DNA from: a virus
Length of the DNA: 40,660 bases
Direction: 5' to 3' (one strand)
Virus genome (UHGV): UHGV-0383422
In this document: positions 33,189 through 36,595 of the stretch, one piece after another
Layout of the letters: each line of letters starts with the position of its first letter
How positions within the stretch are numbered: position 1 is the first letter of the stretch
Position numbers and translations under genes: made by a program
Notes under the pieces: model-generated
What the model was told of the DNA's origin: nothing
What the model saw: only the letters and a program-made list of their open reading frames with translations
Databases searched by the model: none

Positions 33189-33249
33189 CTTTACCCTCGC
33201 TTATCCACATAACTTATTGATTACATTGATAACTAAAAAGATCGTCGAT

Positions 33250-33711: not shown

Positions 33712-34488
33712 TTACTTGATAAATCCTGCCGCCTTTCCCCGCCTGTATTCCTCCATCAGCCACTGCGCCGGTGTTATTCCCCCAAGGGTGGCGGCGTTAG
33801 GCATGCACCCGAAACTTCGCCCTGGTGGATGGTAAACGTCTCTCCCTGTGTCCGGAGGTGTACTCATGGGCTCTGGCTTTGCCTGTATGCTGATCACCGG
33901 ATCGGGTATCTGCTGTCCGGAAGCCACCTTTTTCGCCCAATCATCGAGCAGCCTGCGCGCGTGTTTCTCAACCTCACTCTCGCTAAGCTGGCGCTGATAC
34001 ATTGCACGACGGGTATCACATACGACCCAGTACATAACCGGATGCCGCCACGGGAATCTTTCGGGACCACCAGGATATAAACTTTTTTCCTTGCTGTACC
34101 GGTGAAACTCCGCCATCACATCGTCAATGGTGACGCCAAGAACCATCTTGCTGTCTTTGCACCACTTGATGAATTGCCCTGGCGACGGCCAGAACGGAGA
34201 TTCACTGGCGCGGGCGTGGCGCATACCAGCGTTAACCTGTTCCATTGTAGTGATCCCATTCTCCAGAAACGCAAGCATCCATTGCTTACGGAATTCATTA
34301 AGTTTGTTCTGCTCCCTTATGGTCGAAACGCTTGCAGGAAATGCAGCCTGTAACTGGACAAATAGTTCATTGAAAATTCTAGCAACCTGCTCCTTTTTGC
34401 CATTGCTGTCACGCCGCTCTTCATGCACAGCAACACCATGCTCACGTAAGCGATCGTACTCATTGAGAAGTTCTGGAGTTGATTTCAT
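33712..34488 (-). CDS. replication protein (P-like helicase-loader candidate)
   Basis: 258 aa, downstream of and overlapping the initiator-like gene; no Walker A; assignment by position. Confidence 0.5.
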   Translation of the reverse strand: MKSTPELLNEYDRLREHGVAVHEERRDSNGKKEQVARIFNELFVQLQAAFPASVSTIREQNKLNEFRKQWMLAFLENGITTMEQVNAGMRHARASESPFWPSPGQFIKWCKDSKMVLGVTIDDVMAEFHRYSKEKSLYPGGPERFPWRHPVMYWVVCDTRRAMYQRQLSESEVEKHARRLLDDWAKKVASGQQIPDPVISIQAKPEPMSTPPDTGRDVYHPPGRSFGCMPNAATLGGITPAQWLMEEYRRGKAAGFIK

Positions 34489-35302
34489 CCCACACCCCTT
34501 CTATCCAGTCAGTGTTATTCCAGTCAAGCTCATCGCTTTTCCCGGCATTTTTTGATTTTCCCCTGATATGATTTACGTGCCTGGCGAATTTTTGTTCCCA
34601 CTGAACCTGCGTGAACACTTTGCCCTCAGCCATCCAGTAATCCCGGAATGCAGCAAGTTCAGCAGGTGTAAATTCCGGTTCCGGCAGGGCCGTTCCCCAC
34701 AGCGCAGCACGCCGCCGAAAATCTGGCGACGGTAGCCAGCCATCTGTCATCGGAAATTTCCCGATGGGTTCACTCAGGCCATCCAGAAATTCAGGTTCTG
34801 CCACCTGCAACGGCGTACTGTTCGCTTCACTGGTCGGAGCACCCTCGCGCACGTGCGCTATGTGTGGGGTTTTATATATATCTTCCTCTTCCTCTGGTAA
34901 CTCCTTTTGTAACGCTGTTGGCGTTACTTTTTGCGTTACTCGTTTTCTATGCTCTGCCACTCTTCTATTCGTAAGTGCACGTTTTTTCGATGATTCTCCA
35001 TTATGTCGCTCAAAGTTTGGAAGAATTAGTTTGCCGTCATGATAAGCAAGCCATCCGACGCTAATGAGGGCGTCAGCAAATCCTGTAATAAAAGCGAGTC
35101 TATCAAGTACTCCTTTTGTAACGCTGCCAGCGTTACCGTCTATTGTTTGCTGGTCAGCCCATGCCCATATACGAACCAGCTTTCCAAGAACAGCATCTGG
35201 ATCAATACCCAGAATTTCTGCTATCTGAAAAATTTCAGGTTTATCAGGAGTGATAACTTCAACCTTAATCCAGCTGCTTGCCATAGGTTTCCCCTCTTGC
35301 AC
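34460..35302 (-). CDS. replication initiator / replisome organizer (O-like) with DnaT-like C-terminal region
   Basis: 280 aa; contains internal iteron-like repeats in different reading frames plus an AT-rich tract. Confidence 0.6.
   Translation of the reverse strand: MQEGKPMASSWIKVEVITPDKPEIFQIAEILGIDPDAVLGKLVRIWAWADQQTIDGNAGSVTKGVLDRLAFITGFADALISVGWLAYHDGKLILPNFERHNGESSKKRALTNRRVAEHRKRVTQKVTPTALQKELPEEEEDIYKTPHIAHVREGAPTSEANSTPLQVAEPEFLDGLSEPIGKFPMTDGWLPSPDFRRRAALWGTALPEPEFTPAELAAFRDYWMAEGKVFTQVQWEQKFARHVNHIRGKSKNAGKSDELDWNNTDWIEGVWDEINSRTSQ
34895..35138. repeat. candidate origin: iteron-like repeats (GTAACGC/GCGTTAC) and AT-rich tract inside the initiator gene
   Basis: 26-bp repeat TCCTTTTGTAACGCTG..GCGTTAC at 34901-34926 and 35111-35136, each an inverted repeat; extra GCGTTAC at 34932-34938; TTTTATATATAT at 34870-34881. 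Confidence 0.5.
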
Positions 35303-35477
35303 TCTTTAGTGCACAAGCAAATTCATTACGATGGCGGTTGGCGCTATTCATTGCACATTCAACACATGTTCCGTTCAGAACATACCTTTCAGAGAGATGG
35401 CCGTGACGGCACCGCTTTCCTGTGAAATAGCGATTTAACCCGGCTTTTGCGGCCTCCATTCTGGTTACTATCTTCAA
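35265..35477 (-). CDS. hypothetical small Cys/His-containing protein
   Basis: 70 aa; CRHGH...CVEC...C pattern suggests metal binding; between cro-like and replication genes. Confidence 0.45.
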   Translation of the reverse strand: MKIVTRMEAAKAGLNRYFTGKRCRHGHLSERYVLNGTCVECAMNSANRHRNEFACALKSARGETYGKQLD

Positions 35478-35571
35478 TTTTTCCGCCCCTTTTTGTTATT
35501 GATATTGGCTATTTTGCACAATTGGAAAATTTGATCAACCAGATTTGGTTTTTTATTACCCTTAAGGTGCG

Positions 35572-35603
35572 AATAGATATGAAAAGACCGCCGGATGGCG
35601 GTC
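35572..35603 (-). terminator. rho-independent terminator immediately after the cro-like gene
   Basis: Stem GACCGCC/GGCGGTC with GGAT loop followed on the minus strand by TTTTCATATCTATT. Confidence 0.6.
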
Positions 35604-35625
35604 TACAGAGGGTTGTGGCTGGATA

Positions 35626-35856
35626 TCATGAGTAGAAGAAGTATGCCAGTTCTGCTTTTGAGCGCAGCCATTGTCTTGTTTTACAGGCTTTAAAAAGCCC
35701 ATTCATCAATACTTTACCTGGCATTTTGCGCTTGCCTGTTAAGTGAGTCTGGATATAGTGACTCGTCGTTCCGGCTTCCTGTGCGAAGGCTTCACGCTCA
35801 TCCGGAGTAAGTGCAAGCCAGTGCTTTTTGAAATCGAAATGTCCGTTATCGCTCAT
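35626..35856 (-). CDS. Cro-like HTH regulator
   Basis: 76 aa; HTH-like segment FAQEAGTTSHYIQTHLTGKRK; divergent from the CI-like gene across an operator cluster. Confidence 0.6.
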   Translation of the reverse strand: MSDNGHFDFKKHWLALTPDEREAFAQEAGTTSHYIQTHLTGKRKMPGKVLMNGLFKACKTRQWLRSKAELAYFFYS

Positions 35857-35891
35857 AGCTATTGCCTGATATTTATTTCAGATAATAAATA

Positions 35892-35956
35892 TTCACCCAT
35901 AAGGTAACAAAAATCAAGGATAGTTACCTATGAGGTGCATTTACCTGTTGGGTAAT
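35892..35956. promoter_or_regulatory. operator cluster: three palindromes of the ATTACCT-N3-AGGTAAT family at the cro/cI divergent region
   Basis: 35892-35908 TTCACCC-ATA-AGGTAAC; 35923-35939 GTTACCT-ATG-AGGTGCA; 35940-35956 TTTACCT-GTT-GGGTAAT. Confidence 0.6.
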
Positions 35957-36010
35957 ATTGCTTTAAATTGAATCATCTACTGATTCATATATGAGGCGAT
36001 TTTCCAGAAA

Positions 36011-36595
36011 ATGAAAAGTATCCAGGACGTCCGCAGGCAAAATCTCAACGACTTGATCGACCGTGAATTCAATGGTGTTCAGACGCGGATGGCAGAAAAA
36101 CTTGGAACTCAGGCAAATCTGGTAAACCGCTGGGCTCTTGGCAAGAAGGTTATCGGCGACCAGGTTGCACGAAAAATTGAAGCTGCCGCCAATAAACCCC
36201 GTAACTGGCTTGATATTGATCGTTCGCTTTCTCAGGAGGGTTTTCAGCCTGTCGGCCCGAGCGATATAGGTCAGCTGGCGGCTCACAACCTGGAACGCTG
36301 GATGAGCGAAAGCCGCGACCTTTCAACACAGGGAAAACTTCACCGCGCATCCGGCGTCGCCCAGGTGACAATCAGCCGCCTGTTAAACAATGAGGTCAGC
36401 GTTTCCATTTCCACCCTGGAGAATGTTGCATCCGCATTCGGGCGTCACGGATATGAACTACTGATTCACCCGCACGACCCTGCGACTATCAACTATGACC
36501 GCTCACGCTACGCATTGTTACCCGAAACCGAGAAAGCAAAGATCGAAAGTTACATTGAATTTGTCATCAACCAGAACGAAAAAAGCAAACAATAA
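36011..36595 (+). CDS. CI-like repressor candidate (HTH; no LexA-type self-cleavage domain evident)
   Basis: 194 aa; HTH-like segments; no Ser-Lys peptidase motif; divergent from cro-like gene; own terminator. Confidence 0.55.
   Translation: MKSIQDVRRQNLNDLIDREFNGVQTRMAEKLGTQANLVNRWALGKKVIGDQVARKIEAAANKPRNWLDIDRSLSQEGFQPVGPSDIGQLAAHNLERWMSESRDLSTQGKLHRASGVAQVTISRLLNNEVSVSISTLENVASAFGRHGYELLIHPHDPATINYDRSRYALLPETEKAKIESYIEFVINQNEKSKQ

What the first reader, a model, noticed from the sequence alone, without database searches (positions are those of the whole stretch)
34895..35138. Candidate replication origin inside the initiator gene: iterons read in different frames
Two 26-bp repeats (34901-34926 and 35111-35136) differ at three central bases and each contains an inverted repeat of GTAACGC/GCGTTAC; an extra GCGTTAC lies at 34932-34938 and an AT-rich tract at 34870-34881. 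On the coding strand the two copies are translated in different reading frames (NAGSVTKG versus VTPTALQKE), which argues for selection on the DNA sequence itself.
Basis: seen in the sequence. Interest (0 to 1): 0.4.

Follow-up and report, generated by a model that had tools for sequence, protein, structure and literature searches.

The report
Phage replication origin inside initiator gene
The repeats are real and are very probably the binding sites of a prophage's replication-starting protein, written inside that protein's own gene; this layout is already known from phage lambda, but here it belongs to a large protein family that has not been studied.

Summary
GTAACGC-N5-GCGTTAC occurs exactly twice in 40.6 kb (0.13 expected), 209 bp apart, both inside a 274-aa replisome-organizer gene that lies upstream of a lambda-P-like helicase-loader gene. 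The repeated unit is really a 7-bp half-site with a 12-bp period. The window has a four-unit convergent array (34897-34939) abutting a homopurine GA tract (34881-96) and the least stable AT tract of the two replication genes (34870-81). It also has a distal palindrome (35118-36) inside the part of the gene that codes for the DNA-binding domain.

Comparison with 82 distinct related loci, from enterobacterial to planctomycete genomes, shows selection on the DNA itself:
- Codon choice is fixed at the sites.
- The sites are read in different frames in different homologs.
- All 154 perfect palindromes lie within -60..+430 of the gene start.
- Divergent homologs carry a different heptamer, changed at both positions together.

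Only the N-terminal winged-helix domain is constant across loci. The C-terminal domains and the helicase or loader partners vary.

Best reading (about 0.75): a lambda/SPP1-style origin bound by its own initiator. Binding and origin firing are inferred, not shown. I file it as a new member of a known kind, of moderate interest.

The parts
34460..35284 (-). Replisome-organizer (lambda-O-analogue) gene, 274 aa. It has an N-terminal winged-helix domain (aa 1-~118), a GA-encoded acidic linker, and a C-terminal DnaT-like domain with a lambda-O-like tail. The real start is probably ATG 35284, not the GTG at 35302 listed by the ORF finder.
   Evidence: ORF; PF17948 DnaT, aa 183-253, 1.6e-18; PHROG 2509, 'replication initiation protein', 1.6e-127; all homologs start MASSWIK / MAGDWIK; winged-helix model; replisome-organizer structural neighbours; tail LDWNNTDWIEGV vs lambda O LDLTNTDWIYGV.
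34897..34939 (.). Proximal array of four heptamer half-sites with a 12-bp period, in convergent orientation. On the + strand: GTAACTC (34897-903, degenerate) CTTTT GTAACGC (34909-15) TGTTG GCGTTAC (34921-27) TTTTT GCGTTAC (34933-39). It codes for the inter-domain linker (VTQKVTPTALQKEL).
   Evidence: The same arrangement is seen in homologs. It is read in frame 0 here but in frame 1 in most homologs.
34909..34927 (.). Core palindrome of the proximal array, GTAACGC-TGTTG-GCGTTAC.
   Evidence: The arms are invariant and the central N5 is free in relatives.
35118..35136 (.). Distal palindrome GTAACGC-TGCCA-GCGTTAC (a perfect 9+1+9 dyad), 209 bp from the proximal one. It lies in the codons for the loop D49-T56 (DGNAGSVT) of the DNA-binding domain.
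   Evidence: Codon choice is fixed as xGT-AAC-GCn-nnn-xGC-GTT-ACn in 20 of 22 distinct loci, the two exceptions each missing one arm base. Synonymous-codon identity is 0.85-1.0 here against 0.2-0.5 elsewhere. The peptide falls in a loop between helices in the AF2 model.
34881..34896 (.). Homopurine/homopyrimidine tract (coding strand CAGAGGAAGAGGAAGA), directly abutting the last half-site. It encodes PEEEED. The (GAGGAA)n length is polymorphic among close relatives.
   Evidence: The tract stays GA-rich while the peptide changes (EEEEE in enterics, EKRREEK elsewhere). Codons for L-P-E are 0.8-1.0 identical across loci.
34870..34881 (.). AT tract TTTTATATATAT, the candidate DNA-unwinding element.
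   Evidence: lowest nearest-neighbour stability in 33712-35302; top 0.15% of the window. AT-rich sequence follows the GA tract in relatives.
34847..34858 (.). Perfect 12-bp GC palindrome GCGCACGTGCGC just beyond the AT tract. It may be part of the origin; this is tentative.
   Evidence: GCGCGCG recurs at this position in enterobacterial relatives. Not tested further.
33712..34488 (-). Lambda-P-like helicase-loader gene, the functional partner of the organizer.
   Evidence: PF06992, 5.1e-56; PHROG 109; 39% identity to lambda P, 7e-50.

Best explanation
The region is the replication origin of a lambdoid-organised Uetakevirus-like (phiV10/TL-2011b/ZX5-type) prophage, embedded in the gene of its own initiator.

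Proposed mechanism, with shown and inferred steps marked:
1. The 274-aa replisome organizer is made from the early rightward-type operon, in the order cro-like, small Zn-ribbon-like ORF, organizer, P-like gene. The gene order is shown.
2. Its N-terminal winged-helix domain binds the 7-bp half-site GTAACGC, probably as dimers on the GTAACGC-N5-GCGTTAC dyads and cooperatively on the flanking half-sites spaced 12 bp apart. This is inferred from co-inheritance and co-variation.
3. Occupancy of the four-unit array (34897-34939) builds an O-some-like nucleoprotein complex. The distal dyad 209 bp away (35118-36, about 19.9 helical turns) may contribute through a loop. This is inferred.
4. The complex strains and melts the adjacent homopurine tract and AT tract (34870-34896). 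This is inferred; low duplex stability is shown.
5. The C-terminal DnaT-like domain and lambda-O-like tail recruit the P-like loader carrying host DnaB onto the opened DNA. This is inferred from homology to lambda O/P.

Because the sites lie in coding DNA, they dictate the peptides GNAxSVT (a loop of the DNA-binding domain) and VT..ALQ / ALPE (the linker).
For: Observation statistics:
- The pattern has 2 hits against 0.13 expected.
- Heptamers cluster in this region.

Gene identity:
- PHROG 2509 'replication initiation protein' and a DnaT domain.
- The downstream gene is 39% identical to lambda P.
- The C-terminal tail resembles the lambda O tail.
- The neighbourhood has lambda-like synteny: cI-like, cro-like, a tR1-like terminator, organizer, P-like gene.

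DNA-level selection:
- At the distal site, 20 of 22 distinct loci use xGT-AAC-GCn-nnn-xGC-GTT-ACn, and the other two (L016, L026) each miss one arm base. The first residue varies G/C/S yet always keeps the GT.
- AAC is used 22/22 against a background of 0.60. GTT is used 22/22 against 0.40. Serine is AGC 15/16 against 0.21.
- Synonymous-codon identity jumps from 0.2-0.5 to 0.85-1.0 exactly at the two sites and at the L-P-E codons.
- Linker half-sites are read in frame 1 in most loci but in frame 0 in this window and four others.

Specific location:
- In 82 distinct loci (350,619 bp), all 154 perfect palindromes lie within -60..+430 of the gene start.

Co-variation:
- Divergent homologs carry a different heptamer: GTTGCGG, GTAGACG, GTTACGC/GTTGCGC, TGTCACA or CTAACGG.
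- In each locus the same heptamer occurs both at the loop-coding site and in the linker array, where for three of the five (L109, L110, L111) the last inverted copy abuts CAGAG(GA)n.
- Loop and linker peptides also co-vary among 143 representatives that share at most 50% identity.

Only the N-domain is constant:
- C-terminal domains and upstream genes vary.
- Downstream partners are lambda-P-like, DnaC/IstB-like or DnaB helicases.

Fold:
- The AF2 model is a winged helix.
- Foldseek matches phage 'replisome organizer' proteins.

Origin anatomy:
- The order is array, then GA homopurine tract, then least-stable AT tract, in the direction of transcription.
- Lambda has iterons at +348..+432 of O followed by an A/G-rich AT region. 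The array here lies at +345..+388.
- Precedents for origins inside initiator genes: lambda and Stx phages (PMC7466680) and SPP1 oriL in gene 38 (PMC6316719).
Against: - No experiment was available. Binding by the N-domain and origin firing are both inferred.
- The AT tract is only about 12 bp, much shorter than the unwinding element of lambda.
- Only one array of four half-sites plus one distant dyad is present. The lambda origin has four full dyad iterons in tandem.
- Palindromic sites are also what operators look like. In 11 of 58 viral and about 5 of 25 genomic loci a further palindrome sits 20-45 bp upstream of the start codon, which suggests autoregulation.
- On the + strand the proximal palindrome is followed by TTTTT and scores as terminator-like.
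Confidence: 0.75

Rival explanations
1. The sites are operators only. The organizer, or another regulator, binds the palindromes to repress or roadblock transcription of the replication operon, and the origin lies elsewhere.
For: The sites have dyad symmetry. A further palindrome lies 20-45 bp upstream of the start codon in a minority of loci. Plasmid Rep proteins are known to autoregulate through inverted repeats (established knowledge).
Against: In this window no site is near a promoter; the nearest promoter-like match is about 600 bp upstream. The conserved juxtaposition of array, homopurine tract and AT tract, together with tandem same-orientation half-sites, is origin anatomy rather than operator anatomy. 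No other repeat cluster for this protein exists in the window. A dual role, origin plus autoregulation, is quite possible and does not conflict with the main explanation.
Confidence: 0.12
2. The sites are bound by a different protein, either a host factor or another phage protein, and not by the organizer's N-domain.
For: No binding experiment has been done. The small Zn-ribbon-like ORF upstream (35265-35477) is conserved in the closest relatives.
Against: The N-domain is the only gene segment shared by all loci that carry the sites. Upstream genes, C-terminal domains and downstream partners all vary. The identical heptamer occurs in hosts from different phyla, and the heptamer changes together with N-domain divergence.
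Confidence: 0.05
3. The palindromes act as RNA or transcript-level elements, either mRNA hairpins or an intrinsic terminator for an antisense transcript.
For: On the + strand, 34909-34927 is a hairpin followed by TTTTT and is flagged as terminator-like.
Against: Half-sites also occur as tandem direct copies, which cannot pair. The same heptamer is required at separate sites. The T-run is not conserved in distant homologs. Rfam gives no match. No promoter-like site lies between the two palindromes on the + strand.
Confidence: 0.03
4. The repeats reflect protein-level constraint or an internal duplication with no function for the DNA itself.
For: DGNAxSVT is a conserved peptide, and the N-domain protein sequence is highly conserved overall.
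Against: The two copies are in different frames. Synonymous positions are fixed only at the sites. Residue 1 of the motif varies G/C/S but always keeps the bases GT. The linker peptide differs (EEEEE vs EKRREEK) while the DNA stays homopurine.
Confidence: 0.01

Closest known systems
Phage lambda ori (iterons plus AT-rich region inside gene O) with the O/P initiator-loader pair, including the Stx-phage variants
   Same: The origin lies inside the initiator gene, in the codons for the inter-domain linker: +345..+388 here, +348..+432 in lambda. The sites have dyad symmetry and are followed, in the direction of transcription, by a purine-biased AT-rich stretch. The partner gene is a true lambda P homolog (39% identity). 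The C-terminal tail resembles the lambda O tail. Gene order is cro-like, small ORF, O-like, P-like. Extra repeat units add residues to the protein, as described for Stx phages (PMC7466680).
   Different: The N-terminal DNA-binding domain is unrelated in sequence to lambda O (no PF04492 hit; hhalign probability 0.2%). The unit is a 7-bp half-site with a 12-bp period in a convergent array, rather than four 18-19-bp dyad iterons. There is a GA homopurine tract and only a 12-bp AT tract. An additional dyad lies 209 bp upstream, inside the sequence coding for the DNA-binding domain. The C-terminal domain is DnaT-like.
Bacillus phage SPP1 replisome organizer G38P with oriL inside gene 38 (Phage_rep_org_N, PF09681)
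   Same: A replisome organizer binds repeats located within its own gene, next to an AT-rich unwinding element, and is followed by loader and helicase genes (PMC6316719). Foldseek places the N-domain model next to phage 'replisome organizer' and Phage_rep_org_N proteins.
   Different: There is no significant sequence match to PF09681 (best E-value 0.11, in 1 of 34 members). SPP1 uses direct repeats and has a second origin (oriR); no second cluster exists in this window. The hosts and partner proteins are different.
Iteron-plasmid Rep initiators (winged-helix RepA/Pi class)
   Different: There is no sequence relationship. The sites here lie inside the coding sequence. The element is a phage replication module with a separate helicase loader.

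Membership tests
Lambda-type phage origin (ori inside the O-like initiator gene) | The origin lies inside the initiator gene, in the segment between the DNA-binding domain and the loader-interacting domain. | tested here: met
   The array is at gene offset +345..+388, between the winged-helix domain and the DnaT-like domain. Lambda iterons are at +348..+432.
Lambda-type phage origin (ori inside the O-like initiator gene) | Repeated initiator-binding sites (iterons) that are conserved as DNA. | tested here: met
   The repeats and their DNA-level selection are shown. Physical binding by the initiator was not testable.
Lambda-type phage origin (ori inside the O-like initiator gene) | An adjacent AT-rich unwinding region. 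| tested here: inconclusive
   The least stable 20-step window of the two genes lies next to the array, but the pure AT run is only 12 bp. A GA homopurine tract sits in between.
Lambda-type phage origin (ori inside the O-like initiator gene) | The initiator is homologous to lambda O (Pfam Phage_rep_O). | tested here: not met
   There is no Pfam hit for the N-domain. hhalign probability against lambda O is 0.2%. Only the last ~50 residues align weakly (E = 0.003 for a single comparison).
Lambda-type phage origin (ori inside the O-like initiator gene) | A lambda-P-type helicase loader is encoded immediately downstream. | tested here: met
   PF06992 at 5.1e-56; 39% identity to lambda P.
Lambda-type phage origin (ori inside the O-like initiator gene) | The fragment supports initiator-dependent replication. 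| not testable with these tools
   This needs an ori-plasmid assay or marker-frequency analysis.
Phage replisome organizer, N-terminal domain (PF09681, SPP1 G38P type) | Sequence match to the family model above its threshold. | tested here: not met
   The best E-value is 0.11, in 1 of 34 family members.
Phage replisome organizer, N-terminal domain (PF09681, SPP1 G38P type) | The same fold. | tested here: inconclusive
Primosomal protein DnaT | DnaT DNA-binding domain (PF17948). | tested here: met
   aa 183-253, 66.6 bits against a cutoff of 25.
Primosomal protein DnaT | Full-length equivalog (NCBIfam NF002770). | tested here: not met
   92.7 bits against a cutoff of 201, and only aa 169-250 match. 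The GenBank label 'primosomal protein I' on relatives therefore overstates the case.

The most novel reading that the evidence does not exclude
The binding-site code and the protein code are locked together in one gene. The cognate DNA site of this initiator family is written into a surface loop of its own DNA-binding domain and into its linker. When specificity changes, the heptamer and the two peptides change together (GNAxSVT/NAxSVT, NGCG/NGCG, NAPSVSKAL/NAPSVSKAL and so on). The two or three site clusters, spaced about 190-230 bp apart at near-integral numbers of helical turns, would then form a looped or wrapped initiation complex that differs from the compact lambda O-some. If so, this very large family (over 7,000 clusters at 50% identity, spread across several phyla and lacking a Pfam model for the N-domain) would be a natural system for reading out how initiator and origin specificity co-evolve directly from sequence.
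Probability: 0.3. Interest if true: 0.6.

Novelty: new member of a known kind. Interest (0 to 1): 0.45.

Why it matters
It assigns a probable replication origin, and a recognisable sequence signature for it, to a widespread group of temperate phages. About 11% of complete E. coli genomes match this region, and the family reaches relatives in Planctomycetes and Verrucomicrobia. The signature is a heptamer array, then CAGAG(GA)n, then an AT tract, inside the organizer gene. The initiator's N-domain has no Pfam model, and I found no published characterisation of it. The family shows clean, sequence-readable co-variation between an initiator and its sites. It is also a clear case of a DNA-binding site dictating conserved amino acids in the protein that probably binds it. 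In practical terms, the signature could be used to annotate origins in thousands of prophages and to design ori-based vectors or specificity-swap experiments.

Tried and rejected
- Literature searches for the heptamer or palindrome, for DnaT-like phage initiators with iterons, and for phiV10/epsilon15 origins found nothing on this family. The paper describing the 99%-identical phage ZX5 does not discuss an origin.
- PDB sequence search with the family profile gave no hit.
- Rfam gave no RNA family in 34000-36200.
- DnaA boxes: none lies in or next to the element. The nearest perfect box is at 33201-33209, about 1.7 kb away, so DnaA-dependent opening is not indicated.
- Homology of the N-domain to lambda O is rejected.
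- The first attempt to scan genomes with an 18-sequence alignment failed because no stretch was conserved enough. A 6-sequence alignment worked.
- The GCGTTAC at -120 in two relatives (L001, L002) encodes ERY in the upstream gene and is absent from the window, so I treated it as coincidence.
- Helical phasing of the site clusters: the N-site-to-linker distances are 189, 198, 207, 209, 219 and 231 bp, which is 18.0-22.0 turns and always within 0.3 turn of an integer. This is suggestive only. The distance classes are not independent, and each is constrained by the reading frame.

Full report
**1.

The + strand carries ACTCCTTTTGTAACGC-N5-GCGTTAC at 34900-34927 and 35109-35136. The two copies are 25/28 identical, and the three mismatches all lie in the central N5.

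The pattern GTAACGCNNNNNGCGTTAC, even with up to 2 mismatches allowed, matches only these two places in 40,660 bp. The expected number is 0.13, and none of 100 shuffles reaches 2. Five of the 12 GTAACGC heptamers in the window lie within 228 bp here.

The third GCGTTAC is at 34933-34939, one base off the reported position.

The real unit is therefore a 7-bp half-site with a 12-bp period. Four copies form a convergent array (two forward, two reverse) at 34897-34939, and one isolated dyad lies at 35118-35136.

On the coding (-) strand the array runs directly into CAGAGGAAGAGGAAGA (a homopurine tract, 34881-34896) and then ATATATATAAAA (34870-34881). The 20-step window at 34870-34890 has the lowest nearest-neighbour duplex stability in the two replication genes and ranks in the top 0.15% of the whole window.

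The two dyads are translated in different frames, GNAGSVT and VTPTALQ.

**2. Genomic context**

The window is a Uetakevirus-like temperate E. coli phage or prophage. This region is 98.5-99.1% identical to phages vB_EcoP_ZX5, HEMP4 and TL-2011b. Matches occur in 604 of 5,426 complete E. coli genomes.

The repeats lie in a 274-aa gene at 34460-35284 on the - strand. Homologs show that the real start is the ATG at 35284. The protein matches PHROG 2509 'replication initiation protein' (1.6e-127) and has a C-terminal DnaT DNA-binding domain (PF17948). It does not reach the cutoff of the full-length DnaT model.

Immediately downstream is a lambda-P homolog (PF06992; 39% identity to lambda P). Upstream lie a small Zn-ribbon-like ORF, a tR1-like terminator, a cro-like gene and a divergent cI-like repressor. 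This is the lambda early-right layout.

The last ~50 residues of the organizer weakly resemble the C-terminus of lambda O (LDWNNTDWIEGV vs LDLTNTDWIYGV). The N-domain has no Pfam family and no detectable similarity to lambda O (hhalign probability 0.2%).

**3. Selection acts on the DNA, not only on the protein**

I collected 25 genomic loci. They come from Enterobacterales (including Yersinia and Serratia), Planctomycetes, Verrucomicrobia, an Ignavibacteria metagenome-assembled genome (MAG) and Janthinobacterium, at 38-83% protein identity. I also collected 80 viral contigs out of 344 matching ones.

- **Position.** In nearly all loci GTAACGC-N5-GCGTTAC occurs at gene position about +149 and again at +338..+413. 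In 82 distinct loci totalling 350,619 bp, all 154 perfect palindromes lie within -60..+430 of the gene start, and none lies elsewhere.
- **Codon choice at the +149 site.** Twenty of 22 distinct loci use xGT-AAC-GCn-nnn-xGC-GTT-ACn; L016 and L026 each miss one arm base. The first residue varies among G, C and S but always keeps the bases GT. AAC is used 22/22 times against a background of 0.60. GTT is used 22/22 against 0.40. Serine is AGC 15/16 against 0.21.
- **Synonymous-codon profile.** A per-codon profile over 23 loci sits at 0.2-0.5 across the domain. It rises to 0.85-1.0 exactly at D49-T56 and again at the linker codons L-P-E-E (TTA CCA GAG GA..).
- **Reading frame.** In the linker, the half-sites are read as NA / SVT (frame 1) in most loci. 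They are read as VT / ALQ (frame 0) in this window and in L001, L002, L006 and L017.
- **GA tract.** The tract stays homopurine while its translation changes, EEEEE in enterics and EKRREEK elsewhere.

Together these results exclude a purely protein-level explanation.

**4. The sites co-vary with the protein**

Divergent homologs have a different heptamer. In each one the same heptamer appears both at the loop-coding site and in the linker array, and in three of the five (L109, L110, L111) the last inverted copy abuts CAGAG(GA)n:

| Locus | Heptamer |
|---|---|
| L109 | GTTGCGG / CCGCAAC |
| L110 | GTAGACG / CGTCTAC |
| L111 | GTTACGC / GTTGCGC |
| L027 | TGTCACA |
| L019 | CTAACGG...CGTTAG |

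The family contains 7,207 clusters at 50% identity with E ≤ 1e-3. Among 143 representatives, the loop and linker peptides change together. Examples are GNAPSVSKAL with TNAPSVSKAL, GNGVSVT with CNGDGVT, and GNDLSVT with RNDITVT.

Across loci, the only constant gene segment is the N-domain:
- C-terminal domains differ.
- Upstream genes differ.
- The downstream partner is lambda-P-like, DnaC/IstB-like or a DnaB helicase.

Enterobacter phage BUCT554 and a Klebsiella phage share with the window only the segment 34881-35284. That segment is the N-domain plus the sites, and the similarity breaks at the GA/AT tract. This is the modular pattern expected for an origin-binding domain and its origin. It points to the N-domain as the binder.

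**5. Fold of the N-domain**

The AlphaFold2 model (34-sequence alignment, pLDDT 72.6) shows helices at 16-25 and 29-46, a loop at 47-56, helices at 57-64 and 69-76, a beta hairpin at 80-87 and a long basic helix at 98-118. This is a winged helix. The loop at 47-56 is exactly DGNAGSVT.

Foldseek against viral models finds proteins named replisome organizer, Phage_rep_org_N, DUF1376 and DnaD-like.

Extra 12-bp half-site units appear as 4-residue insertions in the loop (GNAKCNAASVT in L004, L005, L007, L008). So the loop tolerates growth of the site array.

**6. Mechanism**

The anatomy parallels lambda. The lambda iterons lie at +348..+432 of gene O and are followed by an A/G-rich AT region. Lambdoid origins are described as iterons plus an AT-rich tract in the middle of O, and two iterons plus the AT region suffice for unwinding (PMC7466680). 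SPP1 gp38 likewise binds repeats of oriL inside gene 38, next to an AT-rich unwinding element (PMC6316719).

I therefore propose the following, all of it inferred:
- The organizer's N-domain binds the half-site array and the distal dyad.
- It assembles an O-some-like complex, possibly looping the roughly 20 helical turns between the two clusters.
- The complex opens the GA/AT tract.
- The C-terminal domain brings in the P-like loader with DnaB.

What is shown: the repeats, the DNA-level selection on them, their co-variation with the protein, their positional specificity, the gene identities and the low duplex stability. What is inferred: who binds the sites, DNA melting and origin firing.

**7. 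Rival explanations**

- **Operator-only role (0.12).** This is favoured by the dyad symmetry and by an extra palindrome just upstream of the start codon in a minority of loci. It is disfavoured by the conserved pairing of the array with GA and AT tracts and by the distance from any promoter-like site in this window. A dual role is plausible.
- **Another binder (0.05).** This is unlikely, because only the N-domain co-occurs with the sites.
- **RNA hairpin or antisense terminator (0.03).** The + strand hairpin followed by TTTTT is flagged. However, tandem direct half-sites cannot pair, the T-run is not conserved, and Rfam gives no match.
- **Protein-only constraint (0.01).** This is refuted.

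**8. Novelty and score**

The kind of element, an origin inside the replisome-organizer gene, is well known. This protein family and its heptamer code appear undescribed in the literature I could search. Two features go beyond the lambda picture: the second site inside the sequence coding for the DNA-binding domain, and the heptamer preserved across phyla.

I file it as a new member of a known kind, with interest 0.45.

Noticed in passing
window 35585-35604 (- strand): Strong intrinsic-terminator-like hairpin AGACCGCC-ATCC-GGCGGTCT followed by TTTTC. It lies between the cro-like gene (35626-35856) and the small ORF and organizer gene. The position is analogous to lambda tR1, which would imply antitermination control of the replication genes. 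phiV10 records annotate a terminator here.
   Followed up: partly
window 34881-34896; loci L029-L108: The (GAGGAA)n homopurine tract varies from 2 to 6 units among otherwise 97-100% identical phages. The window has 2 units, which explains the 6-bp gap relative to most E. coli prophage matches (1407 vs 1401 bp). This is probably replication slippage, and it changes the length of the acidic linker.
   Followed up: partly
window 34881-35284 vs L001 (BUCT554) and L002 (Klebsiella phage ST11-OXA245phi3.2): DNA similarity to these phages covers only the N-domain and the sites and stops at the GA/AT tract. The C-terminal halves differ (DnaT-like in BUCT554, a different domain in the Klebsiella phage, which also lacks a P-like gene). 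The origin region therefore acts as a recombination or module boundary.
   Followed up: partly
window 34847-34858: Perfect 12-bp palindrome GCGCACGTGCGC immediately beyond the AT tract. A GCGCGCG motif recurs at the same place in enterobacterial relatives even where the surrounding sequence has diverged. It may be part of the origin; from memory, lambda also has an inverted repeat beyond its AT region.
   Followed up: no
window 33201-33209: The only perfect DnaA box (TTATCCACA) in the window lies in the short intergenic gap between the DUF1064 gene and the next gene, about 1.7 kb from the candidate origin. One-mismatch DnaA boxes are about twice as frequent as expected across the window (18 vs 9.35).
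   Followed up: no
window 35265-35477 (- strand): A 70-aa ORF in the position of lambda cII has a C-x2-H ... C-x2-C motif (GKRCRHGH...GTCVEC). It belongs to PHROG 1081 (unknown function) and has no Pfam family. It is conserved upstream of the organizer in the closest relatives and overlaps the organizer start by 19 nt.
   Followed up: no
L004, L009/L010, L023, L024, L079, L084-L099 (about -20 to -45 from the start codon): A third perfect GTAACGC-N5-GCGTTAC palindrome lies just upstream of the organizer start codon in a minority of homologous loci, 182-203 bp from the +149/+160 site. The window has none. It suggests autoregulation or a three-cluster origin in those phages.
   Followed up: partly
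L014 and L015 (Stieleria magnilauensis chromosome, about 44 kb apart): Two copies of the organizer locus in one planctomycete chromosome, identical over the stretches examined (the 120 bp upstream of the start and gene offsets +130..+190 and +300..+480). The heptamer is identical to the E. coli phage heptamer, at 58% protein identity over the N-domain.
   Followed up: no
window 35284-35302: The ORF finder lists GTG 35302 as the start (280 aa). All homologs begin at the ATG at 35284 (MASSWIK), which is preceded by GAGGGG, so the 274-aa form is the likely product.
   Followed up: yes
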